A stretch of 64,000 bases of DNA, from positions 6,382,270 through 6,446,269 of the forward strand of contig JADJBV010000001.1 of assembly GCA_016703535.1 (NCBI GenBank), written 5' to 3'. The translations under genes were made by a program, and so were the position numbers. This stretch comes from Deltaproteobacteria bacterium (GTDB lineage: Bacteria > Myxococcota > Kuafuiibacteriia > Kuafuiibacteriales > Kuafuiibacteriaceae). Each line of letters starts with the position of its first letter. Position 1 is the stretch's first letter. Shown here one piece after another: positions 16,969 to 36,056 of the stretch. The notes beneath the pieces are model-generated. The model made no database searches and had not been told where the DNA came from. It was given only the letters and a program-made list of their open reading frames with translations.

Positions 16969-18006
16969 ATGTCCAAGCCAAGGTTTTTGGGGTGGGTACC
17001 CCTGGTCTACTTGCTGAGTTCGGGCGGTTTCGCCCACGCCGAGTTCAACTCGTCGATCGGCAAACACAGCGACTGCAAGAAGCTCAAAGGCGCCGACCGA
17101 ACGCGCTGCACCCAGTGCCTCAACAGCGGCGAAGGCTTCTTCAACAAGGAACCCAAGACGGGCAAGTGGGTCTGCGGGATGACCAGCGACATGACGTCGG
17201 TCGCCGATCGGGAGCGGGGAGATCCTCCGCCGCCCCCCTTGAAGGCGATGCCGCCGCAGCAAAAGCAGTACGCCAAAATCGCCGCGGGCACGTTCCGGAT
17301 CGGCACGCCCGCGCCGGCGGATGGCTCGTACCGCTCGTCCTCGGAGTTGGACTCGGAGGTGACCATCACCCGGCCGTTCTTGATGAAGACCACCGAGGTG
17401 ACCAACGGCGAGTGGTACTTCGTGATGAAGAAGATGCCCAAGCGCTTCAAGGCGGGCTGCATGGACTGCCCGGCCACCCACATGTCCTGGCTCGACGCGG
17501 CCGCTTACCTCAACGCGCTCTCCAAGCTCGAGAAGCTCGAGACCTGTTACGTGATCCGCGGCGAAACCGTCGAGTGGAGGGGCCTCGACTGCAAAGGTTA
17601 TCGCCTGCCCACCGAAGCCGAGTGGGAGTACGCGGCCCGGGGCGGGACCACCGGTCCCACCCACGGAGAGATGGACGCCATCGCCTGGCACGCCGGCAAC
17701 AGCGACTCGAAGAAACACCCGGTCGGAGGCAAAGCGGCGAACGCGTACGGGCTCCACGACATGATGGGGAACGCCTCCGAGTGGACCTGGGATGTGTACA
17801 AAGAGGCCGCCTTCGAAAATCCTCAGACGGATCCGATCATCGGTGGCCTGAAGATGACCGACATCTACGAGGACCGAGTGGTCCGCGGCGTCGATTTTAT
17901 GGCGGCCCCCGCGAGCGCCAGCGTCGCCTTCCGCAACACCCAGCTGGACGCGAACCAGGCCGGCGAGACGATCGGGTTCCGGCCGGTGCGAACCGTCAAG
18001 CCCTAG
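16969..18006 (+). CDS. FGE-sulfatase (SUMF1/formylglycine-generating-enzyme-like) domain protein, secreted
   Basis: 345 aa. Signal 'WVPLVYLLSSGGFAHA'. Family hallmarks are 'GYRLPTEAEWEYAARGG', 'NAYGLHDMMGNASEWTWD' and 'GFRPVR'. Confidence 0.85.
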   Translation: MSKPRFLGWVPLVYLLSSGGFAHAEFNSSIGKHSDCKKLKGADRTRCTQCLNSGEGFFNKEPKTGKWVCGMTSDMTSVADRERGDPPPPPLKAMPPQQKQYAKIAAGTFRIGTPAPADGSYRSSSELDSEVTITRPFLMKTTEVTNGEWYFVMKKMPKRFKAGCMDCPATHMSWLDAAAYLNALSKLEKLETCYVIRGETVEWRGLDCKGYRLPTEAEWEYAARGGTTGPTHGEMDAIAWHAGNSDSKKHPVGGKAANAYGLHDMMGNASEWTWDVYKEAAFENPQTDPIIGGLKMTDIYEDRVVRGVDFMAAPASASVAFRNTQLDANQAGETIGFRPVRTVKP

Positions 18007-18846: not shown

Positions 18847-20205
18847 TCAGCGCGGACAAGGTACGGCGTCGTAGACCTCGGTCCCGTGAGACAAGGACAG
18901 CAGCAGGTGACGGCAGTCGGGGGTCTCGACGAAGCCGATGCCTTCGAAGTCTCCCGGCAAGAAGGTGGTCCCATCGTCCCGCCGCGCCTCGAGGATGGAG
19001 TGCAACTCCAGCGGGTTGAACCGGGAGAAGGCCGCGATGGTCAGGGCATATGGCTGAGGCACGGTGGTGAGGAAGATCAGCGATTGTCGATCGCAGCCAA
19101 GGTTCAGCCAGAACGCGCCTTGGCCGGGGGTGAGCGGAAAACCGACGCCTTCGCCGAGGAAGCCGGTGTCACCCGCCACCGTTGAGCTTCGCACCACCGC
19201 CACCGCGGCGAGGGTGTCGGAGCGGAAGATGAGGGTGCGGAGGTCGCCGAGCAGCACCGGGAAACGAAGGTGATCGGTGGCCTTGGAAAGGACCACCCGA
19301 GGGCGCACAAAAGGCGCGCCGAGCCGCGGGCGGGACGCGACCCAGATCTCGTTGATGGCGATACTCCCGGTGCGGACCTGAAAGAACAGCTCCAGGCCAT
19401 CGGCCCGGACCTGAGGGCGCTCCTGGGCGTAGTCGGCGGGGAGGCCCAGGTCGATCGGCTCGATGCTCCCCGGACGGATCGCGAGGTTCGGTTCGAGCTC
19501 CGCCCGGGCCAACTTCAGGTCCCCTGGGGGGCCGTAGCGATCCGTCGAGAAGTACAAGATCCACCGCCCGTCTTCGACCCCCACCGAAGTGACGGTGTCG
19601 TTGGCGCCCGGGGCAGCGAGGCCGAGCAGCGGGCCTCGGGAGCGATAACAAGCCTCGGCCCGCGGATCGGGCAGCAGGCAATCGTTGTGGGGATAAGGCT
19701 CCTTCAGCAGCGACGTTCGGGCGCAAGGGCAAGGCAACTTGCATTCCTCGGGGTTGGGGCTGAGCCCGTAACAACCGCCCGCGCCGAGGCAGGCGCCGCG
19801 TTCCGGCGCGGCGATGCGCACCGCCGCCAGCCGCAGTTCGGCGTCCGTGGCGTCGACGGGTGACCAGCGGGTGTCGACCTTCTCGAAGGTGGCCAGCCCC
19901 TCTGGGAGTGGTCGCCCATCGCCGCGAGGAAGTTGACCTTCCGGGAGGGCCAACTCACTCAAGGGTGCGCCCAGGTATCGCAAGTAGAGGGGGCCCGGCG
20001 GCGCGGCGAAAGGCGCCGGCCCTACCCCCTGATGCGCGATGACCACTGGGCCGTCCTCCGCCAGGACCACGATCAACATCGATCGGGCACCCGCGGGCGG
20101 GACGGGCCACTGTAGACCCTCGGCGGGGCTGCAGGCCGTGAAGCAAGCGGCGACGAGGGCCGAGACCCGCCGAGCGAGGCCCGGGAATGGACGAGGCCCG
20201 GTCAC
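18847..20205 (-). CDS. Hypothetical lipoprotein
   Basis: 452 aa. 'VSALVAACFTAC' lipobox and a Cys-rich middle ('CYGLSPNPEECKLPCPC'). No domain recognised. Confidence 0.55.
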   Translation of the reverse strand: MTGPRPFPGLARRVSALVAACFTACSPAEGLQWPVPPAGARSMLIVVLAEDGPVVIAHQGVGPAPFAAPPGPLYLRYLGAPLSELALPEGQLPRGDGRPLPEGLATFEKVDTRWSPVDATDAELRLAAVRIAAPERGACLGAGGCYGLSPNPEECKLPCPCARTSLLKEPYPHNDCLLPDPRAEACYRSRGPLLGLAAPGANDTVTSVGVEDGRWILYFSTDRYGPPGDLKLARAELEPNLAIRPGSIEPIDLGLPADYAQERPQVRADGLELFFQVRTGSIAINEIWVASRPRLGAPFVRPRVVLSKATDHLRFPVLLGDLRTLIFRSDTLAAVAVVRSSTVAGDTGFLGEGVGFPLTPGQGAFWLNLGCDRQSLIFLTTVPQPYALTIAAFSRFNPLELHSILEARRDDGTTFLPGDFEGIGFVETPDCRHLLLSLSHGTEVYDAVPCPR

Positions 20206-20325
20206 CCTCGGAAGCTACGTCGCCCCCTCGACCCCTGTCGAGGAGGTCGGTTCAGCGCGGGCCGGCGGAGCTCACGCATTCGCCGCTAGCGAGGGGCGAG
20301 CGATCGTGGTTAGGCAACTTCCTTC

Positions 20326-20727
20326 ATGAACGCGATCTACATGGCCCACTCCGGACTCCGCTACCTCGTCCTCCTGTCGGGGTTCATCACCCTGGCCCTG
20401 CTGTTGATCGGCCAACTCCAAGGCAAGGCCTTCGCGCCCATTCATCGGATCTCCAGCACCGCCTACGCGGGCCTGCTCCACCTGCAGGTCGTCCTGGGCA
20501 TCGTCTTGGTCGGGATGGGCCGCTTCTACCCGGCGCTGATCGGCCACCTGGCGATGATGTTGGCCGCCGCGGTCGGGCTCCAGTTCGCCCTCACCTTCAA
20601 CAAGAAGCGCGGGACCCCCAACCTCAAGCTCCCGCTGATCGCGGTCGCGGTGTCGCTGGTGTTGATCGCCGCGGGCGTGATGGCGATCGGCCGGGGCCTC
20701 TTTCAGAGCATCGCCTTCTCTTCTTGA
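20326..20727 (+). CDS. Small integral membrane protein (4 predicted TM helices)
   Basis: 133 aa with four hydrophobic stretches ('YLVLLSGFITLALLLI', 'AYAGLLHLQVVLGIVLVGM', 'LIGHLAMMLAAAVGLQFAL', 'LIAVAVSLVLIAAGVMAI'). Confidence 0.6.
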   Translation: MNAIYMAHSGLRYLVLLSGFITLALLLIGQLQGKAFAPIHRISSTAYAGLLHLQVVLGIVLVGMGRFYPALIGHLAMMLAAAVGLQFALTFNKKRGTPNLKLPLIAVAVSLVLIAAGVMAIGRGLFQSIAFSS

Positions 20728-20771
20728 GGCCCGTGGGCTGCATTGACTCCGCCCAGGTAGTCCCTCAAGAA

Positions 20772-21890
20772 GTGGGGGTGCCCTCCCGCACCCTGCTGCT
20801 CCTCATCGTGTTGACGGTCGCCGGGCTGGCGGCGTGCGAAGACCCGGCCAGCGACGCGGGGCCTGACGCCGGCTTCGTCGACGCGGCACCGCTGGACGCC
20901 ACACCCGCGGATCGGGGGGTCCAGGACGCGGCGCCCGACTCAGGCGCGGACTCGGGGCCCAGTGACTCGGGGATCTTGGACGCCGATCCGGCCGACGCCG
21001 ATCCGGCCGACGCAGATCAGGCCGACGCCGATCCGACCGACGTTGATCCGGCCGACGTTGATCCCACGGACGCCGACCCTCCGGACACCGGCGCCCCCGA
21101 CACCGGCCTCAGGGACGACGCGGGTTGTCCGTTCCCCAGCGGCGCGATCGACGATCCCACGGCCGTCGGTCTGCCCTCGGGTGTGGTGTTGTGGCTCCGA
21201 GGCGAACGTGGCGTCGCTACCTTGCCCGACGGGATCTCAGTGTGTCGCTGGGAGGACGTCAGCGGCAACGGCCGACACTTCTTGCCCGCCACCGCCACCT
21301 TGCCCAGCTACCAAGCGGCCGCGGTCGGCGGCCGCCCGGCGGTGGTCTTCGTGACCAACTCGCGGCTCGAGCGGCCCGACGTGCTCGGCCTGGGCGCGAC
21401 CCAAGGCCGGGCCATCGCCGTTCGCTCCCAGATCGTGGACACCACCCGTCGTTTTGGATCGCTGCTGCAAGGCAACCGTGGCAACAACTGGGAGTACCTG
21501 GAGCTGGAGCAGAACACCTTCAACACCGTCGGCAGTCGGGTCGGCGTCTACTTGACGGCCAACGCCTACGACTCGGACGTGGCCACCTCCACCGCCGCCC
21601 GCACCCACGTCTACTCGATCACCACCATGGTCACCGGCACCACCCTCCCCGGCGCCTTGTCCTACGCGGTCGACGGCGTGGAGCGCACCTTGACCCGCAC
21701 CCCCGGCGGCAACGGCCCCAGCGGCCCGGGCAACAACCTGGTCTGGGACTTCAGCGGCGCCAACTTCACCTCGATCGGTGAGACTGCAACCCCCGGCTTC
21801 ACCGGCGGCGCCATCGGCGAAGTGTTGGTGTTCGACCACCCGCTGACCCCGCAGGAGCGAGCGGCCGTCGAAGCCCACCTGGGCCGCTGA
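20772..21890 (+). CDS. Lipoprotein with Asp/Pro/Ala pentapeptide-repeat linker and LamG/concanavalin-like C-terminal domain
   Basis: This is the 3' part of track ORF 20187..21890. GTG 20772 or 20778 gives 'VPSRTLLLLIVLTVAGLAAC' (lipobox). The C-terminal 'FTGGAIGEVLVFDHPLTPQERAAVEAHL' resembles the end of LamG-type domains. Confidence 0.55.
   Translation: MGVPSRTLLLLIVLTVAGLAACEDPASDAGPDAGFVDAAPLDATPADRGVQDAAPDSGADSGPSDSGILDADPADADPADADQADADPTDVDPADVDPTDADPPDTGAPDTGLRDDAGCPFPSGAIDDPTAVGLPSGVVLWLRGERGVATLPDGISVCRWEDVSGNGRHFLPATATLPSYQAAAVGGRPAVVFVTNSRLERPDVLGLGATQGRAIAVRSQIVDTTRRFGSLLQGNRGNNWEYLELEQNTFNTVGSRVGVYLTANAYDSDVATSTAARTHVYSITTMVTGTTLPGALSYAVDGVERTLTRTPGGNGPSGPGNNLVWDFSGANFTSIGETATPGFTGGAIGEVLVFDHPLTPQERAAVEAHLGR
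20985..21104 (+). repeat. 15-bp tandem repeat (gatccggccgacgcc and variants, ~7-8 copies) encoding (D-P/A-A/T-D-A/V)n
   Basis: Read directly: gatccggccgacgcc gatccggccgacgca gatcaggccgacgcc gatccgaccgacgtt gatccggccgacgtt gatcccacggacgcc gaccctccggacacc ggcgcccccgacacc. Confidence 0.8.
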
Positions 21891-21962: not shown

Positions 21963-23120
21963 ATGGGCCCGATGCTGTCGAACTTCAAAGGCGCTTGGTC
22001 CCTGCTTCCCCTGTTTTGGGCGGCCTGCACCGCGGACGCGGGCCTGCTCCAGGGCGGTGAGTCCCCAGACCAGGGGGCGGGGCGCGGCGGGGGTACCCAA
22101 GGGACCGATGGCGGCGCCGATCCGGACCTCGGGATCCCCTTCGACGCGGGCCTCGTGGTGGACGCCGGCGCGATAGCGGACGCCGGCTCACCCGCGGAGG
22201 TGGAGCAGGCCTTGGTGCGCGCCGAGTGCCGCTACGCCGCGAGGTGCCTTCGGCGCTTCTACTTCGACGCCTTCGGCGCCGATCCCGGCTGCCTCGAGTC
22301 GGGCGCTTACGGGTTGGGCCGAAGCGCCCGGGCGCGGATCGAGGCGGGTCGAGCGGTGGTCGATCCCGAGCAGCTGGCCGCCTGCCTCGCGGCGATGGAG
22401 TCCAGCGGCTGCGAAGAGACCACTCGAGCCCAAGCCTGCGATCGAGCCCTGGTGGGGACCGTGGCCCAAGGTGAAGGTTGCCTGAACTCGGCCGAGTGCG
22501 GCCCGGGCCTGCGGTGCTTCGGGATCAACTGCGGGACCTGCCAGCCGATGCTCCCCACCGGCGCTTCCTGCGACGCCAACGCGGGCGGCTGTGAAGGTTA
22601 TTGTTTCACCCAGATCGCGGGCACCCCCGGCTCCTGTCTGCCCAACCACCTGCTCGAGGGTGAGTTGTGCAGCGGGTCGTTCTCGGACTGCGAACCCCCG
22701 CTCCGCTGCGTTCGGATCAACGAAGACGAACGTCGTTGTCAGGCCGCGCCCGTGCCCGGAGCCGCCTGCAGCGACCTGGGCGGCGGCGCGAGCTGCGACT
22801 ACGGCCACGCCACCTGCAACAACGGCGTCTGCGAATGGCTGGTCTTCGTCGATCCCGGCGAACCCTGTGACCAGGATCGGCTCTGCCGCGGCAGCTGCTT
22901 CCAGGGCCTGTGCCGCGCCTACCCTCAGCTCGGTGAGGCATGCCCGGCCTTCTCCGGTGCCTGCGCGGGCGCCCTGGGCCGGTGCGGCAGCGACGGGATC
23001 TGCCGCCCCCGCCCCAAGGATGGCGAGCCCTGCCAAGGTTACGACAGCTGCGAACGTGGCCTGCTATGCGGCATCGACCCGCCCGTCTGCACTTCTCGCC
23101 CGTGGGAGACCTGCAACTGA
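21963..23120 (+). CDS. Cysteine-rich putative lipoprotein
   Basis: 385 aa. 'WSLLPLFWAAC' lipobox. More than 30 Cys occur in repeated 'G-x-x-C-x-x-x-x-x-C' contexts. Confidence 0.55.
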   Translation: MGPMLSNFKGAWSLLPLFWAACTADAGLLQGGESPDQGAGRGGGTQGTDGGADPDLGIPFDAGLVVDAGAIADAGSPAEVEQALVRAECRYAARCLRRFYFDAFGADPGCLESGAYGLGRSARARIEAGRAVVDPEQLAACLAAMESSGCEETTRAQACDRALVGTVAQGEGCLNSAECGPGLRCFGINCGTCQPMLPTGASCDANAGGCEGYCFTQIAGTPGSCLPNHLLEGELCSGSFSDCEPPLRCVRINEDERRCQAAPVPGAACSDLGGGASCDYGHATCNNGVCEWLVFVDPGEPCDQDRLCRGSCFQGLCRAYPQLGEACPAFSGACAGALGRCGSDGICRPRPKDGEPCQGYDSCERGLLCGIDPPVCTSRPWETCN

Positions 23121-23143: not shown

Positions 23144-23794
23144 TCAGCGTAGCGCCGGTCCTTGACCTTCCGCGCCCTCCGGGCCCTGCTTCTTGCGGTC
23201 GCCGAACAACATGGCTCGGATGCCGGTGTGAGGCTCGGAGACCGTGATGGCCAGGTACACGTGGACGATGAGGAACATCGTGAAGACATAGGCCGTCACC
23301 GAGTGCCCGATCGCGACCGGGAGGAGCCCCGGCAGGCTGGCGACCTTCTCGGGAACCGATAACGGAAAGAGCAAGAGCAGGCCCGTGCCGATCTGCACCG
23401 GGAACATGAGGAAAACCGCCCCGATGTAAGAGACCTGCTGCAGCGGGTTGAAGCGACTGACGACCGTCGCCGGAAATGGGTGGTGCCCGCCCTGGAAGAT
23501 GTCCGAGAGATAATAACGAACCTGCCTGGCCGCGCGCCGAAAGAACGGGCGCCGGGGGACGTACTGCCTCCAGTGTCCCGTCCAGACCATACTCGCCAGG
23601 TAGAAGACATAGGCGAGTGTGCAGGCCACCCCCGTGGCGTTGTGACCCAGGACCGCCCAGCGAAAGTAGCCGCCGGCCCCGGCCTCGCCGTAGTGCAGCG
23701 CGAAGCCCGTCGCTACCAGGGCCAGAAACAGGAACGCGTTCACCCAGTGCCAGGCCCGCAGCCATCCTGGGAACATCGGCGTCGGCTTCTTCAT
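23144..23794 (-). CDS. Membrane di-heme cytochrome b (PhsC / Ni-Fe-hydrogenase-type cytochrome b-like)
   Basis: 216 aa with about 4 TM helices carrying conserved His ('WHWVNAFLFLALVATGFALHY', 'LGHNATG', 'IGHSVTAYVFTMFLIVHVY'). The start overlaps the stop of the upstream 7-heme gene. Confidence 0.7.
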   Translation of the reverse strand: MKKPTPMFPGWLRAWHWVNAFLFLALVATGFALHYGEAGAGGYFRWAVLGHNATGVACTLAYVFYLASMVWTGHWRQYVPRRPFFRRAARQVRYYLSDIFQGGHHPFPATVVSRFNPLQQVSYIGAVFLMFPVQIGTGLLLLFPLSVPEKVASLPGLLPVAIGHSVTAYVFTMFLIVHVYLAITVSEPHTGIRAMLFGDRKKQGPEGAEGQGPALR

Positions 23795-24762
23795 GGGTGA
23801 GGACCTCCCGGGCCGATTCCGCGCTTCCTACGCACCAAGGCGGCCGCGGTGCGCAACAGCGCGTGACCCAAGATGCCCAGGAAGGTCAGCGTGGCGAGCG
23901 ACATGCCTATCAAGTCGAGGGTCTGATTTCGTGTCGCGCCGATGACATAGGCCTCGTTCAAGATCGCCGCGTTCATGAACCCATACTTCTCTTGCTCGAC
24001 CGCGTGCGCGTAGCGATAGGTCTTGAACTTCAGCACCGACGCCTCTTGATGGCAGGACTCGCACTTCGAGAGCGCTTGGGCCTTGGGCAGGATACGATGG
24101 CTCCCCACGACGCCCTCGGAGTTCGTGTGGCAGTCGACGCAGCGGACCGAACGCCAGTGGAGGTCGCGGTTGGGCAGCCACTGATGGGCCGCGTCAAGAT
24201 CGGGGGGCGCGCGATGGGCGAAGGTCCGGAACTCGAGCTCAGAGCCGTGGCAGCGCAGGCATGCCTGGTTGTGCTCGAGGGACTCGTCGGGAGTCATGCC
24301 GAAACGGATCCGGTGGGGATCGTGGCACCGGGCGCAGGTGAACTGCACGCTCTTGGTGGAGTGTACGCTCTGATCGAACTCACGGATGATCCGGACGAGG
24401 TCGACCTTGTGGCCCCGTTCGGAGCCGGCGGGTGCGGGGGCCCGAGCCTCGAACTCAGCGAGCACGCGCTCGTCCAGGTGACAGTGCGCGCAGTCCACGG
24501 GACGAAGGTCCTCGTCCTCCTTGTCATGCGCGATGCTGACGTCCTCCACGTCGCCGTGACACGAGATGCAGCCATGGAGGGCATGGACGGAGGCCCGGTA
24601 GGCGACCAGATCGATCTTGGGCGCCCGCGCGTCGCCCGTGCCCGCGTGGCAGATGAAGCACTCGGAATCGCGCGCCGTCCTCGGGATCGGGTTGTCCGCG
24701 ACCGCAGAGGTGGGCCACCCCAGCCCGGCCGCGAGCAGCCCGAGGATCGTTATGGTTCTCAT
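23791..24762 (-). CDS. Heptaheme c-type cytochrome with C-terminal membrane anchor
   Basis: The ORF track gives 23791..24846. ATG 24762 ('MRTITILGLLAAGLGW', a signal) overlaps the upstream stop (ATGA). Seven CxxCH motifs are present: CFICH, CISCH, CAHCH, CARCH, CLRCH, CVDCH, CESCH. The C-terminal TM is 'LATLTFLGILGHALL'. Confidence 0.85.
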   Translation of the reverse strand: MRTITILGLLAAGLGWPTSAVADNPIPRTARDSECFICHAGTGDARAPKIDLVAYRASVHALHGCISCHGDVEDVSIAHDKEDEDLRPVDCAHCHLDERVLAEFEARAPAPAGSERGHKVDLVRIIREFDQSVHSTKSVQFTCARCHDPHRIRFGMTPDESLEHNQACLRCHGSELEFRTFAHRAPPDLDAAHQWLPNRDLHWRSVRCVDCHTNSEGVVGSHRILPKAQALSKCESCHQEASVLKFKTYRYAHAVEQEKYGFMNAAILNEAYVIGATRNQTLDLIGMSLATLTFLGILGHALLRTAAALVRRKRGIGPGGPHP

Positions 24763-26270
24763 CGACCGCCTCCGCCGCTCGTGAAGGGGTGGCAGCCGTG
24801 ACAGGTCTGCGCCCCTGGCTCGTGCGTCCGTTGCGGCTCGTGGCACGCCCCCACGCAGCTGGCGCGGTCAAAGGCCGTAGCCTGGTCGTGGAAGCGATGG
24901 CAGTCCGCACAGACCCCGTGCTTAGGGATCATGTGGAGGGACGGCAGTGGCGGAGCATGACACTTCGTGCAGGGCTGCGGAGCCGCCGGGCCCTTGGGGC
25001 CGTGCGCTCGATGGCAGTCCGCGCAGGCCCGGGCGGGCTCGCTGTGTGGCCCAAGGCCCTGCTGAGCGTGGCATTCGACGCAGGTCTTCTTTAGCGCACC
25101 GTCGTGGGTCTGGTGGCAGTCCGCGCAGACGTCGTGGCCACGAGGCGCGCTGGTGTGTTCGGTCGGATGACACTTGGCGCAGGCTGGCGGCCGCAGGGCC
25201 GGGTCGTGGGCCTGGAGGTGGCAGGTGGTGCAGCGCTCGTGCCCCTTCACCGTCTTCACGTGCACGGGGTCGAGGACCGAAGGCGCAGCCGAAAGTGCAT
25301 GGCAGCGAACACACAGATCCTCAGGGGGCACCGGAGTCCGGATCTTTCCCGGCGCGTGGCAGCTCGCGCAGGCGACACGACGGCCATGGAACGCGGTGTC
25401 TGAAGCGGCTTGGAGGTGGCAACTCGAGCAGGGCGCTGATCGTACGGTGCCGCCGCCCAGATGGATATTCTGGTGGGCGTCGTGGCAGTCCTTGCACGTC
25501 CCCGGCTGGGTGGCGCTGAGCACCTCCCGGGCGTGCCCAACCTGGTGGCAGCTTTCGCACGGACGAACCCCGGAGCCGGCCCCGTGGGGCTCGTGGCAGC
25601 TCACGCAGCGCGTGTGCCCGGGCAGCCTGAGCTTCTGCGCTTCGTGGCAGCCCTGGCAGCGCTCGGCCGCGTCCTCCTTCGTTCGGTGGCCGACGTGGCA
25701 CTCGATACACTGCGCCGGACCTTTCAACGCCGAGTTGTGCGCAGTGAAGCTGCTCTCGTGGCACCCGGCGCAGTCCCCGGGGCGCACCGCGGATTCGCCG
25801 TGCGGCGTATGGCACGCCTTGCAGGCCTCGGCCGCATGAACCGTGATGAGCGGCGCCTTGCTCGCCCAATCTTGTGCGGGAGCGCCCCGAGTCTGCTGCC
25901 CCTCTGCGGTGTGACAGCGAAGACAGCCCCACGGTGCCGCGGTCGTCGCGAGGAAGTCATGGCAGGTCAGACACTCTTTTGCGTCATCGCTGGCGGCGGC
26001 CCGGTGGACCGCCGACGCGCTCTTCTCGTGACAGCCGAGGCAACGCTGAGTCTTGGAGAGCACCTTGGCGCCCTCGATCCGGTGGCAGTCCGCGCAGACC
26101 GCCGGCTTCTCGGCGTTCAGGTGAGCCAGGTGGAGCGCACTCTGCAGGGCCTTGGCTTGCTCGGGGGTCGGCTCTTGGCCGGCGTCAGGGCTCGTCGCCG
26201 GGCGTTCCTGTGGGGTGCAGCTCCAGCCGAGACCCGCGAACAGGCAAGCGACGGCGAGCGATCTCAGCAT
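24759..26270 (-). CDS. Multiheme c-type cytochrome (22 CxxCH + 1 CxxxCH motifs in 503 aa)
   Basis: Signal peptide 'MLRSLAVACLFAGLGWSC'. Hand count of heme motifs gives CADCH, CLGCH, CLTCH, CLRCH, CKACH, CAGCH, CIECH, CQGCH, CVSCH, CESCH, CKDCH, CSSCH, CASCH, CVRCH, CTTCH, CAKCH, CADCH, CVECH, CADCH, CTKCH, CADCH, CVGACH, CHGCH. Confidence 0.9.
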   Translation of the reverse strand: MLRSLAVACLFAGLGWSCTPQERPATSPDAGQEPTPEQAKALQSALHLAHLNAEKPAVCADCHRIEGAKVLSKTQRCLGCHEKSASAVHRAAASDDAKECLTCHDFLATTAAPWGCLRCHTAEGQQTRGAPAQDWASKAPLITVHAAEACKACHTPHGESAVRPGDCAGCHESSFTAHNSALKGPAQCIECHVGHRTKEDAAERCQGCHEAQKLRLPGHTRCVSCHEPHGAGSGVRPCESCHQVGHAREVLSATQPGTCKDCHDAHQNIHLGGGTVRSAPCSSCHLQAASDTAFHGRRVACASCHAPGKIRTPVPPEDLCVRCHALSAAPSVLDPVHVKTVKGHERCTTCHLQAHDPALRPPACAKCHPTEHTSAPRGHDVCADCHQTHDGALKKTCVECHAQQGLGPHSEPARACADCHRAHGPKGPAAPQPCTKCHAPPLPSLHMIPKHGVCADCHRFHDQATAFDRASCVGACHEPQRTHEPGAQTCHGCHPFTSGGGGR

Positions 26271-26438
26271 CGGCTGACGGCGACGCTACTTCGGCGCAGA
26301 GGGAATTCAAAACGCGGTCGTCGTGACCGCGGAGTAACCTACCAAGAGGTAACAATTTGCGGGGCTGCGCCTGTGGGGGTCGAGCGGAAGTATAGGGTCC
26401 AAACCCTACAGCAGACGAACCTGGGCATTTAGGGCAGC

Positions 26439-26636
26439 CTACTGGCGCGGGCGACGTCCGAGCAGCAGAGCAAACACGTCGGCCGAGCCGCCTTCGCTGA
26501 GGCCCGCCCGACCCCTCCACGCCGTCGGGTTCTCAAACGTCCCGAAGATCAGATCCCAAAGCGCGATGTCGCCGAAGTTGAGCGGCGCCCGATCACGATC
26601 GTGATGCAGCGCGTGGCTCTCGAGCGGATGGGTCAT
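26439..26636 (-). pseudogene. 3'-terminal remnant of a fatty-acid hydroxylase / sterol desaturase-family gene
   Basis: The 65-aa ORF 'HPLESHALHHDRDRAPLNFGDIALWDLIFGTF' matches the last His box (HxxHH) and the 'NFG...WDxxFGT' tail of the family. The frame hits a stop 3 codons upstream of the Met, about 25 nt from the stop of the HD-Pnk gene. The roughly 200 N-terminal codons expected for this family are missing. Confidence 0.6.
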
Positions 26637-26667: not shown

Positions 26668-27969
26668 CTATGGCCGAGCAGGCGCCCAGGCGAGGCCGTA
26701 AGGCAGGGCACCGTGGACCCCAAAGGCCGCCCGCACCCGCTGGTTGCCGTCCAAAAACAGGACCCGGTGGGCCTCGTCGAGCTCGGGCCACTCCATGCGT
26801 TCGAGCTGGTTGTCCAACACGTTCGGCGGAACGGCGTCGGTCCGAGCCCGGTTGCGTCGGTGGTAGTCGGCGAGGTCCAGGTGAAAGACCACCAAGGTGA
26901 CCAAAGTGCCGTAGTCGAAGCCCAAACCAGCGACCCGGGTCCGGAAGTCCTGGCGCAAGCTGGTGGCGTCCCACACCACCGGCCGTTGTTTTCGCAAGCT
27001 GGCTTTCAATCGCTCTCTGCCTTCGGCGAGGACCCGATCGTTGGCGCCCTGATCACCTCGGTCCGAGCCGAGTTCTTCCCGCAGATCGTCGAGAGAGAGG
27101 TGATCGAAGCCGGCCAGGTGTTTTTGCGCGAAGGTGGTCTTGCCCGAGCCGCTGGGGCCAACGGTGATCACCAGATCCGAACGGGCCTCTCGGGCCTGAA
27201 AACTCCGGGCCACCGCCTCTTCTAGGCTGTGGATCTCACCCCGCTCTAAGCTGCGCCGGGCCTCGGACAGCGCAAAATCGATCACTTGATCGCCGTGACC
27301 CGCGAGGGACTCCACCAGCCGCGCCCGCCAGCTCGGGTCCTGCTCGCCGTGCCGAACGAACGCGCCGTAGTCTTCGGCGAAGAGCCGATACAGATCGATC
27401 TTCTCGATGGCCTCGGCCCGATCCCGGCAGGTCCGGCCCCGCATGTCCGCCTGCTCGACCCAATAGAGGAGCTCCGGATCGGCCAGGCGGCTGACCCGCT
27501 GATAGGCCCCGGCGCTCCGCTCCTTCACCACCAAAAACTTGGGCTCGTGGTGATGGCCGACCAAACCCAACAACACCTCCAGGGACGGATACGGCAACTC
27601 CTCCAACAACCGCGGCGCCAAATAGGAACGCCCCGCGGCCTCGTGACCCCGGGCGACGATGCGCTCCACCCCCTTCAGCTCCTGGGGTCGGGTGCAGATC
27701 GGCTTGGCGATGTCGTGGAGCAGGGCCCCCAACACCAAGAGCAATCGGCCCTCCCCTTCCAGGTGGGCGGCCGGCCCCGCGAGGAGTTGGTAGGCCTCGT
27801 CCATCACCATCTGGGTGTGGATGTGCACGTCGCCTTCGGCGTGCCACTCCGGATCTTGCGGCGTCTCTCGAAAGCGCCGCAACAACGGCAGCCGATCGCC
27901 CAGGGCCTCGACGCACTCGTCGAGGTTCGGAGACGCACCCCGACGAATCTCATCAAAGAAGGTCTTCAT
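26668..27969 (-). CDS. HD-Pnk-type RNA/DNA end-healing enzyme (N-terminal HD phosphoesterase + C-terminal P-loop polynucleotide kinase)
   Basis: The ORF track gives 26668..28059. ATG 27969 ('MKTFFDEIRRG') overlaps the RNA ligase stop (ATGA). HD motif 'LGALLHDIAKP' plus 'GHHHEPK'. Walker A 'ITVGPSGSGKTTFAQ' sits in the C-terminal third. Confidence 0.8.
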   Translation of the reverse strand: MKTFFDEIRRGASPNLDECVEALGDRLPLLRRFRETPQDPEWHAEGDVHIHTQMVMDEAYQLLAGPAAHLEGEGRLLLVLGALLHDIAKPICTRPQELKGVERIVARGHEAAGRSYLAPRLLEELPYPSLEVLLGLVGHHHEPKFLVVKERSAGAYQRVSRLADPELLYWVEQADMRGRTCRDRAEAIEKIDLYRLFAEDYGAFVRHGEQDPSWRARLVESLAGHGDQVIDFALSEARRSLERGEIHSLEEAVARSFQAREARSDLVITVGPSGSGKTTFAQKHLAGFDHLSLDDLREELGSDRGDQGANDRVLAEGRERLKASLRKQRPVVWDATSLRQDFRTRVAGLGFDYGTLVTLVVFHLDLADYHRRNRARTDAVPPNVLDNQLERMEWPELDEAHRVLFLDGNQRVRAAFGVHGALPYGLAWAPARP

Positions 27970-28610
27970 GACTTCTTCCCGGGTTCTCGCAGGCCGTTGG
28001 GCGTCACCACCCCGTGCATCCAATGATCGTCGGTCTGAACGTGACCGCGCCGCACCCACTTGGCCACGTGCTCCGAAAAGCGCGCGTACGGGAAGGCGCC
28101 GGCGCTGCGCACCACGTACCCTTCACAACGTTGGAGATCGAGCTTGAGGCTCCGGAGCCGGGCGTCGTCGTAGGGCCCTTCGTAGAGCGTCGGCACCAAC
28201 TCGAGGCCCAGCCGCATGGCCCAAGCCTTGGTCTCGGCCCACGACAAACAAGTGTTGGTCTCATCCCAGATCGAAAAGACAAAGAAGTAGCTGGCCAGAT
28301 CTTCGTACGCCACCGAATGCCGCGCGTAGAGATTTTCGCCGCAGACCCGAAACCCCGCCGGGATCTGGTAGCCGATCTCGCCCTGCAGCCGCTTCAGCCA
28401 ATCCCGGGACGGGTGGTGACGGCCATCCAGCGAGCGGGCGTGGAGCCCATCTTGGTAGAGGGTCGAGTTTTCGCCGTCGAGCTTTTCGGTGACCACCACC
28501 GGGGCCGACGACAAAGCCGCCGGGACCTCGGTGACCAGATCGTCGCTGCTGACCCCGGGAGACCAGGGCAGATGGGGCGTCCTAGGATACTTGAAGCGTT
28601 GGGTCGCCAT
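27966..28610 (-). CDS. ATP-dependent RNA ligase family protein
   Basis: The ORF track gives 27966..28643. The likely start is 'MATQRFKYPRTPHLPWSPG' at 28610. Covalent nucleotidyltransferase motif I is 'TEKLDGEN' (KxDG). Further motifs are 'VCGENLY', 'CEGYVVR' and 'VAKWVR'. Confidence 0.75.
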   Translation of the reverse strand: MATQRFKYPRTPHLPWSPGVSSDDLVTEVPAALSSAPVVVTEKLDGENSTLYQDGLHARSLDGRHHPSRDWLKRLQGEIGYQIPAGFRVCGENLYARHSVAYEDLASYFFVFSIWDETNTCLSWAETKAWAMRLGLELVPTLYEGPYDDARLRSLKLDLQRCEGYVVRSAGAFPYARFSEHVAKWVRRGHVQTDDHWMHGVVTPNGLREPGKKS

Positions 28611-28889
28611 GACCCACCTCCTTTGGCGGAGCCCAAGGCCCACGCCATCCCGCGATAGAGCATCGAGCGCAGAGCGGCTCGAAGGAACCGGGACCGAGGA
28701 GATTACATGGCGGAGGCTCGGAGAGATAAATAGGCTAAGCCAAGGCTCCGAAGGAGGTCAACCAGAGTTGCAGGACTTCAAGCTTCAGCGGACCAGAGAC
28801 CAACGACGACGATGGGATAGCAACCGGGTGGACCAGATCCGAGCGCTGGAAACGGCCAAACCCCCGCAGATCCCGGTGGCCACCAACAC

Positions 28890-29803: not shown

Positions 29804-30148
29804 TTAGGGGACGAAGACCTCGACCCGATCGACCGCGCCGAAGGCCATCACCGAGGCTCCGCCCGGCACGTAGATCCGATCACCAATCGCCGCGGCGCCT
29901 GTCCCGTGCCGGCCGGTGGTCATCGGGCTCAAGCTTGACCACCGCTCGGTCTCAAAGCTCCAAGCCTCGACCGCGTCAAAGACCGCGCTGGCGGCGCCGG
30001 TGTTGCCTTCGCCGCCGAAGACGTAGAGCGCCTCGTTGAGGATCGCGGCGGCGGCGCCTCCTCGAGAGGTCGGCATCGGGGGCCCGGCGCTCCAGGTACC
30101 GGCGGTGGGATCGTAGAGGTCGAGCTGAGCGGTGTGCCCCGTGATGGG
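29804..30148 (-). pseudogene. Kelch-repeat protein gene, 3' fragment (5' end deleted at the island junction)
   Basis: Track ORF 29804..30076 reads 'LYVFGGEGNTGAASAVFDAVEAWSFETERWSSLSPMTTGRHGTGAAAIGDRIYVPGGAS'. Manual upstream extension keeps Kelch-like sequence ('GHTAQLDLYDPTAGTWSAGPPMPTSRGG') to about 30145, then 'FRRRPIT' and a stop. No start or N-terminal blades are present. Confidence 0.7.
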
Positions 30149-30217
30149 TCTCCTTCGGAAAAGGTTTCAAACACTTCGCCCGTGACATCGGCCGTCCGCC
30201 TCCTTGAAGTTGGGCTC

Positions 30218-31222
30218 ATGGATCTCAATCCGACTCGCCCCACTTTCGACTTCATCCCGATGGGGCCGGGCGCAGGCCCCTTGACGAGTCCCTCGACTTT
30301 CGACGACTCAAGAAGCATGTACATCGAAATGGTGCGGCAGGTCGTCGAGGAGGCGGTTGCTGTTCATGCGGCCGCGGAGAAGAAGACCATCTCCGATGTT
30401 CTGAAGGAAGTTCGCGAGCACATCGACGCAACAGCGAGGGAACATCAGAAGGACGAACCGGCAATCGACTATCAGAATGCGCTGTGTCGGCTTGGCTACC
30501 TCTACCGCCACGCTCCCGCAAACGCGACGTTGTTCGAGCGCGTCCTTCGTGATTGTCCAGACTTCCTGCTCAAGATTAAAGAACGCAACGGAGCGCGGTT
30601 GCACGTGTGCTCGGTTGGCGGGGGACCTGGCACCGAACTCCTTGGGCTCTCGAAGTTCTTACTCAGGCGGCCCGAGCTTGCGCCGAGCAAGATACAGTTC
30701 ACGGTGTTGGATCGGATCCCGCAATGGGCAGAGACCTGGCAGCGCCTGGCCGATGCCGTCGAGGACCAGTTCAAAAAAGCGCCGACGGGCGCCAAGCCGA
30801 GCATTGCTCCCTCGTTCCTGCCCATGGATGTGTGCGATCCGACCTCATACAAGAGCTACGCCTATCATTTCAGCACGGTCGACATTGTGGTCTTCAACTA
30901 CTTGTTCTCGGAGAACAAGACTCGCTTGGCGGCGGCAGCGGAAGCGGCCCGCCACTTGCTCAACTCCAGCCCGGTGGGTGCTTTGTTCCTATTCATCGAT
31001 CGCCACGAAGCAGACGGACAGCTCACAGAGGCCGTGAGAGCAATGATCCCGACGACTCCTCCTTGCACGGCCAACCTGTTTGGAGGGACGATCGATCGGG
31101 ACGAAGACCGGAAGGCGATGGGCGACATGTTGATGGGAGCTTTGGGCAACCCACGAGTGAAGTTCTTCACGGACAACTACCGTGACCCAACGGCTTTTTG
31201 GACGGCGATTCGGCGCACATGA
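30218..31222 (+). CDS. Class I SAM-dependent methyltransferase-like protein
   Basis: The ORF track gives 30134..31222. The start is placed at ATG 30218 ('MDLNPTRPTF'), just past the Kelch remnant. Motif I is 'LHVCSVGGGPGTELLGL', the post-I acidic residue is in 'FTVLDRI', and 'VDIVVFNYLFSE' follows. GC is lower and A/T-ending codons are more frequent than in the flanks. Confidence 0.65.
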   Translation: MDLNPTRPTFDFIPMGPGAGPLTSPSTFDDSRSMYIEMVRQVVEEAVAVHAAAEKKTISDVLKEVREHIDATAREHQKDEPAIDYQNALCRLGYLYRHAPANATLFERVLRDCPDFLLKIKERNGARLHVCSVGGGPGTELLGLSKFLLRRPELAPSKIQFTVLDRIPQWAETWQRLADAVEDQFKKAPTGAKPSIAPSFLPMDVCDPTSYKSYAYHFSTVDIVVFNYLFSENKTRLAAAAEAARHLLNSSPVGALFLFIDRHEADGQLTEAVRAMIPTTPPCTANLFGGTIDRDEDRKAMGDMLMGALGNPRVKFFTDNYRDPTAFWTAIRRT

Positions 31223-32142
31223 TCATCTCCGCCAGCTACAAGACTGACATCCCTGCGTTCTACGGAACGTGGTTTCGAAATCGCCTTCGTGCCGGGTTTT
31301 GCAAGACCGTCAATCCGCTCAATCGCGATCAGCACTCCACGATTTCACTGAAGCGGTCTGACGTCGAAAGCTACGTCTTCTGGACGAAGGGTCAGGGACC
31401 GTTCTTGCCGGTGCTCGATGAGCTGCATGAGGCTGGCTTCCCGTTCATCGTTCAGTACACGATAAACGGCTACCCTCGGGCTCTTGAAACGCGAGTTAGC
31501 GACTCGGATCGGGCCGTCGAACAAATGCAGGTGGTCTCACGTAGGTTCGGTCCCCGAGTAGCTGTCTGGCGCTACGACACCATCGTGCTCTCGTCATTGA
31601 CCGATTTCGCATTCCATCGAAGGAACTTCGAACGGCTTGCTGAAGCTCTCTCCGGAACAACGGACGAAGTCGTCGTCTCGTTTCTTCAGCTCTACCAGAA
31701 GACGAAGCGCAATCTCGACGAAGCCGGACGCGTGGAAGCGTTTGAATGGTGGGATCCAACGGTGGAAGAGAAGAGGGACCTGCTTTCTGCCCTGGCGCAG
31801 ATCGCTGCTTCAAATCGAATGCGACTCACCATTTGCACGCAACCGGACCTTGTCGTGGCCGGTGTCGGGGAGTCTCGCTGCATTGACGGTGAGCGCCTGA
31901 TGGACTTGGCCGGTGGACGATTCCCGGCGAAGGTCAAAGGCATGCGGGAGGGCTGCGGCTGCTACGAGTCGAAGGACATCGGCGACTACGACACGTGCCC
32001 ACATGGATGTGTCTACTGCTACGCCGTTCGCGATCGAGACCTCGCGCTGAATCGGTTTAAGGCTCACGATCCGGAAGGCGAGTACCTGTTTCCCGTTCAG
32101 CCCCCGAAGCCGGCGAGGCAGCTGCGGTTGTTCGGAGAGTAG
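31219..32142 (+). CDS. DUF1848-family protein (C-terminal Cys cluster, putative Fe-S)
   Basis: ATG 31219 ('MIISASYKTDIPAFYGTWFRNRL', the typical DUF1848 opening) overlaps the methyltransferase stop (ATGA). The C-terminal cluster is 'EGCGCYESKDIGDYDTCPHGCVYCYA'. Confidence 0.7.
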   Translation: MIISASYKTDIPAFYGTWFRNRLRAGFCKTVNPLNRDQHSTISLKRSDVESYVFWTKGQGPFLPVLDELHEAGFPFIVQYTINGYPRALETRVSDSDRAVEQMQVVSRRFGPRVAVWRYDTIVLSSLTDFAFHRRNFERLAEALSGTTDEVVVSFLQLYQKTKRNLDEAGRVEAFEWWDPTVEEKRDLLSALAQIAASNRMRLTICTQPDLVVAGVGESRCIDGERLMDLAGGRFPAKVKGMREGCGCYESKDIGDYDTCPHGCVYCYAVRDRDLALNRFKAHDPEGEYLFPVQPPKPARQLRLFGE

Positions 32143-36050: not shown

Positions 36051-36056
36051 CTCGCC

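What the first reader, a model, noticed from the sequence alone, without database searches (positions are those of the whole stretch)
23144..26270. Compact cytochrome b / 7-heme / 23-heme-motif operon, a candidate quinol-linked electron conduit
Seen in sequence: three genes have overlapping stop/start codons (ATGA at 24759-24762; overlap at 23791-23794). The first is a 503-aa secreted protein with 22 CxxCH plus one CxxxCH, about one heme motif per 22 residues. The second is a 7-CxxCH protein with a C-terminal TM. The third is a 4-TM cytochrome b with conserved His.

Established knowledge: cytochrome b plus multiheme c modules, such as the Cbc-type complexes of Geobacter, connect the quinone pool to periplasmic or extracellular acceptors.

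Inference: this could be a respiratory module for metal or extracellular electron transfer, or for an unknown periplasmic reductase. That would be notable in a genome otherwise looking like an aerobic predator-type myxobacterium.
Basis: partly seen in the sequence, partly recalled or inferred. Interest (0 to 1): 0.5.

Follow-up and report, generated by a model that had tools for sequence, protein, structure and literature searches.

The report
CbcBA-type quinol oxidase with 23-haem partner
Three tightly coupled genes in an uncultured myxobacterial genome encode a membrane cytochrome b, a seven-haem partner and a 23-haem protein, a relative of the Geobacter CbcBA system that moves respiratory electrons out of the cell membrane; only the very haem-dense third protein is new.

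Summary
On the minus strand there are three genes with ATGA stop/start overlaps. A (26270-24759) has 503 aa, 22 CxxCH and one CxxxCH. B (24762-23791) has 323 aa, 7 CxxCH and a C-terminal TM helix. C (23794-23144) has 216 aa and is a 4-TM dihaem cytochrome b.

B and C match the published description of Geobacter CbcA/CbcB. B's family profile hits PDB 28pb_A, probably CbcA, at 2e-21. C keeps the four FdnI/HyaC haem histidines. In 73 of 76 loci from many phyla this cytochrome b is directly preceded by, or fused to, a 7- or 13-haem protein.

A belongs to an unnamed family of 21-34-haem proteins (about 22 aa per haem). The named members are all Myxococcota. Its genes sit beside four different kinds of quinol dehydrogenase, often inside porin-cytochrome-like clusters.

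Most likely function: menaquinol is oxidised by C, and electrons pass through two b haems and seven c haems in B to a membrane-tethered 23-haem periplasmic wire or store. The final acceptor is not encoded in the window, so extracellular respiration is not shown.

Verdict: a new variant of a known kind, of moderate interest.

The parts
24759..26270 (-). Gene A: 503-aa, 23-haem c-type cytochrome. It is probably a lipoprotein (Cys18) and is built of about 11 dihaem repeats of 34-46 aa. It is the likely periplasmic wire or electron store.
   Evidence: Searches give the motifs: 26 non-motif His, one internal Met, and alternate haems carrying CxxCHxxH. One search gives the repeat period. Pfam matches Cytochrom_c3_2, Cytochrome_C7 and Cytochrom_CIII above their cut-offs. 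The family has 407 clusters and its motifs are conserved. The AF2 model has pLDDT 77 and pTM 0.49.
23791..24762 (-). Gene B: 323-aa CbcA-like seven-haem cytochrome. It has a cleavable signal peptide, a periplasmic haem domain, a conserved amphipathic segment (AYVIGATRN) and a C-terminal TM helix with invariant His300 followed by Arg304.
   Evidence: The family profile hits PDB 28pb_A at E = 2e-21, and the single sequence hits it at 8.7e-9. The two share the WLPN/QxDLH signature. In the AF2 model the TM helix 280-313 reaches pLDDT 94-96.
23144..23794 (-). Gene C: 216-aa CbcB-like 4-TM dihaem cytochrome b of the FdnI/HyaC/PhsC superfamily. It is the likely quinol site and transmembrane electron path.
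   Evidence: Pfam PF01292 matches at 1.1e-21. NCBIfam PhsC-type NF011582 scores 123.8 bits, below its cut-off of 204. His16, His51, His164 and His178 are invariant and align with FdnI His18, His57, His155 and His169. Topology is N-in and C-in, with the K/R-rich loop 73-116 in the cytoplasm.
26271..26295 (-). Short 5' leader. It is the only upstream DNA conserved with the 88%-identical relative L001 and marks the upstream edge of the conserved three-gene block.
   Evidence: The upstream regions were aligned. tblastx similarity to L001, L085 and L002 is confined to about 23177-26322.
26313..26331 (-). G+C-rich stem-loop followed by TTTTGAATTC, 42 nt upstream of A's ATG. It could be the terminator of the upstream gene remnant or a leader element. 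Its role is unresolved.
   Evidence: Found in the scan; the sequence is shown. It is not conserved in L001, L085 or L002.

Best explanation
The three genes encode one translationally coupled respiratory module, a CbcBA-type quinol:cytochrome c oxidoreductase with its own polyhaem partner.

C is a four-helix cytochrome b with two bis-His b haems stacked across the inner membrane: His51/His164 on the periplasmic side and His16/His178 on the cytoplasmic side. B is a periplasmic seven-haem cytochrome. Its C-terminal helix, with invariant His300 close to the cytoplasmic face, packs against C. A is a membrane-tethered 23-haem protein with almost no hydrophobic core and enough extra His for every haem to be bis-His, and therefore low-potential.

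Inferred electron path: menaquinol is oxidised at C, electrons cross the membrane through the two b haems into B's seven c haems, and then pass into the haem chain of A. A serves as a long periplasmic wire and/or electron store. It feeds acceptors encoded elsewhere, such as an outer-membrane porin-cytochrome conduit or soluble oxidants.

By analogy with FdnI and PhsC, and with the measured low potential of Geobacter CbcA (-279 mV), the step is probably helped by the membrane potential rather than conserving energy.

Shown here: gene structure, haem motifs, ligands, topology, homology, and conservation of the B-C pair and of the A-B-C trio. Inferred: direction of electron flow, position of the quinol site, the wire geometry of A, and the final acceptor.
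For: 1. Anatomy.

2. C is a dihaem cytochrome b. Pfam PF01292 matches at 1e-21. Four His are invariant. They align with the haem ligands of FdnI and HyaC and keep the 14-residue spacing in TM4.

3. B and C fit the published CbcA/CbcB description point by point: a seven-haem cytochrome c with a C-terminal TM His, and a 4-TM 'thiosulfate reductase-like' cytochrome b. C's best NCBIfam match is PhsC-type.

4. B's family profile hits PDB 28pb_A, a seven-haem 278-aa 'Cytochrome c', at 2e-21. That is ten orders of magnitude better than any other solved multihaem protein. A 2026 review cites a new CbcA crystal structure.

5. The family of C includes Caldithrix and Marinilabiliales genomes (Carboxylicivirga, Ancylomarina, Saccharicrinis). 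These are the taxa Joshi et al. list as carrying cbcBA homologues.

6. The pairing is conserved. In 76 loci from many phyla the cytochrome b is directly preceded by, or fused to, a 7-haem ORF (52 loci) or a 13-haem ORF (21 loci).

7. The A-B-C trio is conserved in relatives at 88%, 78% and 56% B identity although the flanks are unrelated.

8. Relatives of A lie beside four kinds of quinol dehydrogenase:
- CbcBA-like (window, L001, L002/L003, L085, L004);
- an 11-haem plus 5-6-TM fusion (L086, L090-L092);
- NapC/NirT (L087, L088, L004);
- 4-haem plus FeS plus NrfD (L089).
They often sit next to a haem-free, roughly 415-aa signal-peptide protein, a 13-haem lipoprotein and MtrC-like cytochromes.

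9. In Geobacter, CbcA reduces the cluster-encoded dodecahaem CbcC and the PpcA family, and its Eapp is -279 mV. CbcBA barely contributes to the proton-motive force.
Against: - No G. sulfurreducens CbcA or CbcB sequence could be obtained for direct comparison. That 28pb_A is CbcA is inferred: the review prints the entry code as '2BPB'.
- The sigma-54/BccR-type regulation described for Geobacter cbcBA is absent. There is no -24/-12 match upstream and no enhancer-binding-protein signature anywhere in the window.
- No outer-membrane conduit, other cytochrome or terminal reductase lies within 64 kb, so the acceptor is unknown.
- C has all four haem ligands itself. The role of B's invariant TM His is therefore not b-haem ligation in the simple sense proposed for CbcA.
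The linear-wire geometry of A is therefore unverified.
- Homologous B-C pairs occur in purple sulfur bacteria, Achromatium and Magnetococcales, where inward electron flow is at least as plausible.
Confidence: 0.62

Rival explanations
1. Same hardware, opposite direction. The module takes electrons from low-potential periplasmic or extracellular donors, collects them on A, and reduces menaquinone at a cytoplasm-side site on C. This would be an energy-conserving redox-loop half, as in formate dehydrogenase-N or the Hmc complex of Desulfovibrio.
For: C is of the FdnI/HyaC type, whose characterised members reduce quinone. The best PDB matches of A's family profile are the 16-haem HmcA cytochromes at 1.2e-22; by my own knowledge, Hmc carries electrons inward. 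One relative of A sits in an Hmc-like arrangement with FeS and NrfD subunits (L089). Homologues of B-C occur in phototrophic and lithotrophic sulfur oxidisers such as Thiocapsa, Thiobaca, Thermochromatium and Achromatium.
Against: The only characterised homologue, CbcBA, works outward. No hydrogenase, formate dehydrogenase or other donor enzyme is nearby. Where relatives of A lie in fuller clusters, those clusters resemble outward porin-cytochrome EET systems with MtrC-like surface cytochromes.
Confidence: 0.14
2. The module is mainly an electron sink and low-coupling overflow valve, not a respiratory pathway to a defined acceptor. A would act as a 23-electron capacitor that lets a largely aerobic bacterium keep oxidising quinol during short anoxic phases, then discharges to O2 or other oxidants later.
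For: No downstream acceptor is encoded in the window or in the four other minimal trio loci. CbcBA is reported as a dissipative, barely pmf-coupled gate. Polyhaem cytochromes have been proposed as capacitors. The best hit to the source is a MAG protein with an IPG45 locus tag; I recall these tags as coming from Danish activated-sludge MAGs, and sludge cycles between oxic and anoxic conditions.
Against: Many relatives of A are embedded in clusters with porin-like and MtrC-like genes, which points to through-conduction rather than storage alone. Storage and conduction are not mutually exclusive.
Confidence: 0.14
3. B and C are the membrane anchor and electron donor of a specific periplasmic reductase (thiosulfate/polysulfide, nitrite, nitrate or similar), and A is an accessory.
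For: C's best curated match is the thiosulfate reductase cytochrome b subunit. B shows weak similarity to NrfH and NrfB, and some homologues are annotated 'nitrate reductase'.
Against: All those matches are far below the curated cut-offs: 123.8 against 204 bits, and 28.6 against 134.2 bits. No molybdopterin, NrfA or other catalytic gene is adjacent here or in any trio locus. B is anchored at its C-terminus, unlike NapC/NirT/NrfH proteins. The 'nitrate reductase' names are source labels on proteins whose only precomputed domains are generic multihaem-cytochrome families.
Confidence: 0.06
4. The cassette is a recently acquired, unexpressed passenger.
For: Homology with relatives ends within about 30 nt of the three genes and the flanks are unrelated in every relative. 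A truncated fatty-acid-hydroxylase-like remnant lies directly upstream. No recognisable promoter was found, and a terminator-like hairpin sits 42 nt before the start codon.
Against: All three ORFs are intact and keep their overlapping start and stop codons. Every haem motif and ligand is conserved. G+C content (0.676) matches the surroundings. The consensus promoter scan does not cover myxobacterial promoter types.
Confidence: 0.04

Closest known systems
CbcBA (GSU0593/GSU0594) with CbcC (the downstream dodecahaem) of Geobacter sulfurreducens
   Same: Both have a seven-haem periplasmic cytochrome anchored by a C-terminal TM helix bearing a conserved His. Both have a 4-TM 'thiosulfate-reductase-like' dihaem cytochrome b, with the cytochrome c gene directly upstream of the cytochrome b gene. 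Both clusters encode an additional periplasmic polyhaem cytochrome. B is sequence-related to the probable CbcA structure 28pb_A.
   Different: The partner has 23 haems rather than 12. It is encoded first rather than last, is probably lipid-anchored, and is related only at profile level (E = 4e-16) to the solved Geobacter dodecahaem GSU1996; I recall CbcC as belonging to that same c7-polymer type. There is no sigma-54/BccR regulator. Relative to the window's B protein, the 28pb chain has about 80 extra residues between haems 6 and 7. C carries all four b-haem ligands itself.
FdnI / HyaC / PhsC dihaem cytochrome b membrane anchors (Pfam PF01292)
   Same: Four TM helices. The four His ligands sit on TM1, TM2 and TM4 with the same 14-residue spacing. 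A partner subunit contributes one additional TM helix.
   Different: The partner is a multihaem cytochrome c, not an FeS subunit of a dehydrogenase or reductase. Scores are below the equivalog cut-offs. No catalytic subunit genes are nearby.
HmcA (16-haem high-molecular-weight cytochrome of Desulfovibrio) and GSU1996 (the solved Geobacter dodecahaem)
   Same: Single polypeptides made of many class III (c3/c7-like) bis-His haem units. These are the best PDB matches of A's family profile (1z1n_X at 1.2e-22, 3ov0_A at 4e-16).
   Different: A packs more haems (23; relatives up to 34) at about 19-22 aa per haem. It is built on a dihaem repeat. The single sequence finds no PDB homologue and the model has no global structural match. 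Its relatives are linked to four different quinol dehydrogenase types.
Predicted single-chain 'nanowire-like' multihaem cytochromes of Desulfuromonadia (Soares et al. 2024)
   Same: Proteins with about 27 haem motifs, predicted to form long haem chains and proposed for long-distance transfer or electron storage.
   Different: The named members of A's family are all Myxococcota, and no Desulfuromonadia name appears among the 120 best hits. Homology between the two groups was not tested.

Membership tests
CbcBA-type quinol:cytochrome c oxidoreductase (Geobacter CbcB + CbcA) | Four-TM dihaem b-type cytochrome of the PF01292 / 'thiosulfate reductase-like' type | tested here: met
   PF01292 matches at 1.1e-21. 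The best NCBIfam match is PhsC-type at 8e-36. There are four hydrophobic helices. Four His are invariant and aligned with the FdnI/HyaC haem ligands.
CbcBA-type quinol:cytochrome c oxidoreductase (Geobacter CbcB + CbcA) | Seven-haem c-type cytochrome, periplasmic, anchored by a C-terminal TM helix that carries a conserved His, and encoded directly upstream of the cytochrome b | tested here: met
   B has 7 CxxCH, a signal peptide, a TM helix at 281-303 and an ATGA overlap with C. His300 is invariant in 38 homologues.
CbcBA-type quinol:cytochrome c oxidoreductase (Geobacter CbcB + CbcA) | Sequence homology of the seven-haem subunit to G. sulfurreducens CbcA | tested here: inconclusive
   B hits PDB 28pb_A ('Cytochrome c', 278 aa, seven CxxCH visible in the alignments) at 8.7e-9. 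Its family profile hits the same chain at 2e-21, well ahead of all other multihaem proteins. That this chain is CbcA is inferred from a review that cites a 2026 CbcA structure under the printed code '2BPB'. The primary paper is not held.
CbcBA-type quinol:cytochrome c oxidoreductase (Geobacter CbcB + CbcA) | Same homologous family as the cbcBA clusters reported in Caldithrix and Marinilabiliales | tested here: met
   The genome scan with C's family returned Caldithrix, Carboxylicivirga, Ancylomarina and Saccharicrinis loci at 32-36% identity, each with a 7-haem gene directly upstream. The taxa are those named.
CbcBA-type quinol:cytochrome c oxidoreductase (Geobacter CbcB + CbcA) | Accessory feature: a sigma-54 promoter and a BccR-like RpoN-dependent regulator in the operon | tested here: not met
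   There is no -24/-12 match upstream of A with up to two mismatches. No GAFTGA-type enhancer-binding-protein signature occurs anywhere in the window, and only 2 of 76 related loci have one. This describes the Geobacter operon and is not a property of the proteins themselves.
CbcBA-type quinol:cytochrome c oxidoreductase (Geobacter CbcB + CbcA) | Needed for respiration of acceptors below about -0.21 V; low-potential haems | not testable with these tools
   This requires genetics and electrochemistry.
PhsC, thiosulfate reductase cytochrome b subunit (NCBIfam NF011582) | Score above the curated cut-off, and adjacent phsA/phsB genes | tested here: not met
   The score is 123.8 bits against a cut-off of 204. 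The neighbouring genes are RNA-repair genes and Cys-rich secreted proteins, with no molybdoenzyme or FeS subunit.
NapC/NirT/NrfH quinol dehydrogenases (considered for B) | Tetrahaem protein with an N-terminal TM anchor; family score above the cut-off | tested here: not met
   TIGR03153 scores 28.6 bits against a cut-off of 134.2. B has seven haems, a cleavable signal peptide and a C-terminal anchor.
Class III polyhaem cytochromes (c3/c7 polymers: HmcA, GSU1996) for A | Tandem c3/c7-type bis-His haem domains | tested here: inconclusive
MtrA/DmsE and MtrC/OmcA decahaem families | Family score above the curated cut-off | tested here: not met
   TIGR03508 scores 16.7 bits for A and 29.3 bits for B against a cut-off of 192.2. 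TIGR03507 scores 23.8 bits for B against 209.3.

The most novel reading that the evidence does not exclude
Gene A would represent a large, uncharacterised Myxococcota family of single-polypeptide, membrane-tethered haem wires of 21-34 haems at about 20 aa per haem. Such a chain would be roughly 20 nm long if linear. These wires would physically bridge the periplasm, plugging interchangeably into four unrelated kinds of inner-membrane quinol dehydrogenase on one side and porin-cytochrome complexes on the other. They would replace the diffusible carriers used by Geobacter and Shewanella. This would also imply that many supposedly aerobic Polyangia-type myxobacteria are electroactive.
Probability: 0.25. 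Interest if true: 0.7.

Novelty: new variant of a known kind. Interest (0 to 1): 0.45.

Why it matters
How electrons cross the periplasm between inner-membrane quinol dehydrogenases and outer-membrane conduits is still debated; the candidates are diffusing small cytochromes and static wires.

Here a minimal three-gene cassette pairs a CbcBA-type quinol oxidase with a dedicated 23-haem protein. Relatives of that protein sit between quinol dehydrogenase genes and porin-cytochrome-like genes in many Myxococcota. That makes it a compact and tractable candidate for testing the static-wire idea.

The finding also extends CbcBA-type modules to Myxococcota beyond the Anaeromyxobacter case already reported. 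CbcBA has been proposed as a marker of low-potential extracellular respiration. This bears on iron and humic cycling in soils and in wastewater sludge.

If the module is only a CbcBA homologue with a capacitor, it is a useful annotation but not a surprise.

Tried and rejected
1. Direct comparison with G. sulfurreducens CbcA/CbcB. No Geobacter sequence could be retrieved. The word-indexed searches with B and C returned no Geobacter hit. The primary CbcA structure paper is not held.

2. Look-up of the window's own B protein in the contig index found nothing on record.

4. Promoter search. There is no sigma-70-like site and no sigma-54 -24/-12 site upstream. Aligning the upstream regions of four relatives showed conservation only in the last 25 nt or so.

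5. Neighbouring genes as outer-membrane partners. The three adjacent ORFs (18847-20205, 20187-21890, 21963-23120) have no Pfam or NCBIfam match. They look like Cys-rich or low-complexity secreted proteins, and they are not conserved next to the cassette in relatives. They were rejected as parts of the system.

6. Cluster-member look-ups for organism names of A's relatives mostly returned unnamed metagenome proteins.

7. Readings as a thiosulfate reductase, nitrite reductase or hydrogenase anchor were rejected. Curated scores are too low and catalytic genes are absent.

Full report
**Observation**

- Gene A (26270..24759) encodes 503 aa with 22 CxxCH and one CxxxCH.
- Gene B is best started at the ATG at 24762. 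That ATG forms ATGA with A's stop and gives 323 aa, beginning with a signal peptide. B has 7 CxxCH and a single C-terminal hydrophobic helix followed by RRKRG.
- Gene C (23794..23144) encodes 216 aa. Its start again overlaps B's stop as ATGA. It has four hydrophobic helices.

The haem motifs are not chance. The six-frame translation of the whole window holds 33 CxxCH, and 29 of them are in A and B. All of the motifs are conserved in homologues. The best database hit to B is identical to it and is a MAG protein labelled 'Deltaproteobacteria bacterium', with an IPG45 locus tag, on a 6.9-Mb contig.

**The cytochrome b (C)**

Pfam PF01292 matches at 1.1e-21. The best curated NCBIfam model is the thiosulfate-reductase cytochrome b subunit, but the score is below its cut-off (123.8 against 204 bits).

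In 24 diverse homologues, His16, His51, His164 and His178 are invariant. A profile of the family hits FdnI (1kqf_C) and HyaC (4gd3_A) at about 3e-9. These His align with the known haem ligands, including the 14-residue spacing in the last helix.

The K/R-rich loop 73-116 and both termini are predicted to be cytoplasmic. This places His51/His164 near the periplasm and His16/His178 near the cytoplasm, a transmembrane dihaem wire.

**The seven-haem protein (B)**

Across 38 homologues the following are invariant:

- the seven CxxCH motifs;
- seven further His;
- most of a WLPNxxxH signature (Leu, Pro and His invariant, Trp nearly so);
- His300 inside the C-terminal helix.

Arg304 just after His300 is nearly invariant.

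B alone hits PDB chain 28pb_A ('Cytochrome c', 278 aa) at 8.7e-9. The family profile hits it at 2e-21, and the next best solved protein is at 9e-12. A 2026 review reports a new crystal structure of the Geobacter CbcA soluble domain, with the entry code printed as '2BPB'. I infer that 28pb is that entry but could not confirm it.

**Match to CbcBA**

Joshi, Chan and Bond describe CbcA as a seven-haem cytochrome anchored by a C-terminal helix with a His. They describe CbcB as a 4-TM dihaem cytochrome usually annotated 'thiosulfate reductase-like'. They report homologous clusters in Anaeromyxobacter, Caldithrix and Marinilabiliales.

The genome scan with C's family returned exactly such taxa (Caldithrix, Carboxylicivirga, Ancylomarina, Saccharicrinis), among 80 loci from many phyla. 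In 76 loci with enough upstream sequence, the cytochrome b is directly preceded by, or fused to, a 7-haem ORF in 52 and a 13-haem ORF in 21.

B and C therefore belong to the CbcA/CbcB family.

The sigma-54/BccR regulation of the Geobacter operon is absent here and in nearly all the other loci. I treat this as a lineage-specific regulatory feature rather than a failure of membership.

**The 23-haem protein (A)**

A has 26 His outside the haem motifs, one internal Met, no Tyr and very few hydrophobic residues. There is one haem per 19-22 residues. Alternate haems carry CxxCHxxH, which gives a dihaem repeat of 34-46 aa.

An exhaustive HMMER search found 407 clusters at 50% identity, 119 of them below 1e-30. 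The 150 best-scoring of these have a median of 25 haems and about 21.8 aa per haem, and some reach 33-36 haems.

All names attached to family members are Myxococcota or unclassified 'Deltaproteobacteria': Haliangium, Labilithrix and Polyangiaceae. Annotations read 'hypothetical' or 'cytochrome c3 family'.

All 23 motifs, the odd CxxxCH and the distal His are conserved. Most relatives carry two extra haems.

N-termini are lipobox-like in 91 of 237 members. In a further 103 they are plain hydrophobic anchors. The family is therefore membrane-tethered.

Sequence and structure comparisons gave the following:

- The single sequence has no PDB homologue.
- The family profile best matches the 16-haem HmcA (1.2e-22), then the dodecahaem GSU1996 (4e-16) and MtrA.
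- The AF2 model (pLDDT 77, pTM 0.49) has no global structural match.

**Genomic context**

Relatives at 88%, 78% and 56% B identity (L001, L085, L002/L003) keep the A-B-C order. Similarity stops within about 30 nt of the three genes and the flanks are unrelated. The trio therefore behaves as a self-contained cassette. Its G+C content (0.676) matches the neighbourhood.

More distant relatives of A are encoded next to other quinol dehydrogenases:

- An overlapping downstream gene for an 11-haem plus 5-6-TM fusion, resembling the published description of CbcL (L086, L090-L092). In L090-L092 this gene set is preceded by a haem-free signal-peptide protein of about 415 aa that looks porin-like and by a 13-haem lipoprotein; L091 and L092 also carry GSu_C4xC and MtrC-like cytochromes upstream.
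- NapC/NirT (L087, L088, L004).
- A 4-haem plus FeS plus NrfD set (L089).

The repeated association supports A as the immediate periplasmic partner of inner-membrane quinol dehydrogenases.

None of the 76 cytochrome b loci from other phyla has an ORF with more than 19 haems.

**Mechanism**

Shown: the parts, their ligands, their topology and their genetic coupling.

Inferred: menaquinol is oxidised at C, electrons cross the membrane through the two b haems to B's seven c haems, and then enter A.

In Geobacter, reduced CbcA passes electrons to the cluster-encoded dodecahaem CbcC and to the PpcA family. Its Eapp is -279 mV. CbcBA supports the lowest growth yields and barely contributes to the proton-motive force.

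As I recall, the midpoint of menaquinol is about -74 mV. A membrane-potential-assisted 'reverse redox loop', with the quinol site near the cytoplasmic haem as in FdnI and PhsC, is a reasonable reading. B's invariant His300 lies at that face. This step is inference only.

If A's haems form a line at about 1 nm per haem, as in the 12-nm GSU1996 (title cited), A could span roughly 20 nm. That is about the width of a periplasm. This could not be checked, because model coordinates are not exposed.

**What is not there**

There is no outer-membrane conduit, no other multihaem gene and no catalytic reductase in the 64 kb. The neighbours are RNA-repair genes upstream and Cys-rich secreted proteins downstream.

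Extracellular respiration therefore remains a hypothesis. Reverse electron flow and a capacitor or overflow role are live alternatives.

**Verdict**

B and C are new members of the CbcBA kind. The trio with a 23-haem partner from an unnamed Myxococcota family is a new variant of a known kind.

Interest is moderate (0.45). It rests mainly on A's family as a candidate static periplasmic wire.

Noticed in passing
window 26668-28059 (-) and 27966-28643 (-): Directly upstream on the same strand are two overlapping genes. One is an HD-domain plus AAA_33 kinase protein with weak similarity to polynucleotide kinase-phosphatase. The other is an RNA ligase (PF09414). Together they look like an RNA-repair pair unrelated to the cytochromes.
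   Followed up: partly
window 26430-26633 (-): A short ORF (MTHPLESHALHHDRDR...NFGDIALWDLIFGTF...) resembles only the C-terminal end of a fatty acid hydroxylase (PF04116, E = 8.5e-4). It is probably a truncated gene remnant abutting the cassette, which hints at a past rearrangement or insertion.
   Followed up: partly
window about 30000-38000: G+C content drops to 0.565-0.62 against about 0.66-0.69 elsewhere. The region holds a DUF1848 protein (31186-32142) and a methyltransferase-like ORF (29939-31222), and coding signal is otherwise poor. It may be an acquired island.
   Followed up: partly
window 12580-16650 (-): A 1356-aa protein made largely of Kelch repeats, with a CHB_HEX_C/Fn3-associated domain. 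Next to it, at 16864-18006 (+), is an FGE-sulfatase-domain protein.
   Followed up: no
window 26313-26331 (-): A G+C-rich hairpin followed by a T-run lies only 42 nt upstream of gene A's start, and no recognisable promoter sits between them. How the operon is transcribed is unexplained.
   Followed up: partly
L079, L078, L076, L061, L055, L025, L023, L005 and others: the ORF just downstream of the cytochrome b: In at least 12 loci from Thiobaca, Achromatium, Magnetococcales, Caldithrix, Turneriella, Poribacteria and Armatimonadota, the 7-haem/cytochrome b pair is followed by a conserved 8-haem protein of about 730 aa. Pfam gives only generic matches. It may be a lineage-spanning partner or enzyme of unknown function.
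   Followed up: partly
L083 10670-13480 and similar ORFs in L037, L064, L068, L072, L073: In Bacteroidota the pair is followed by a 19-haem protein of about 940 aa. In L083 this protein also carries a weak PF01292 cytochrome b match at residues 602-735, which would make it a very large fused cytochrome b/c protein.
   Followed up: partly
L010, L013, L019, L021, L024, L029 (Ignavibacteria, Kapaibacterium and MAGs labelled Hyphomicrobiales): A variant architecture: a 13-haem protein of about 500 aa sits upstream, and the cytochrome b domain is fused to a 7-haem domain in one ORF of about 740 aa.
   Followed up: no
L086 9758-12040; L090 7419-9584; L091 7665-9737; L092 7740-9869: Directly downstream of relatives of A is a fusion protein of about 700 aa with 11 haems and 5-6 TM helices. 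It ends in a conserved '...LIIHGF' helix and resembles the description of Geobacter CbcL. The N-terminal part of the L086 copy is about 60% identical to B over 69 aa.
   Followed up: partly
window 52140-56402 (-): A 1420-aa ORF with two CxxCH motifs. It is the only other ORF in the window with more than one such motif. It was not examined, and two motifs in a protein this long may be chance.
   Followed up: no
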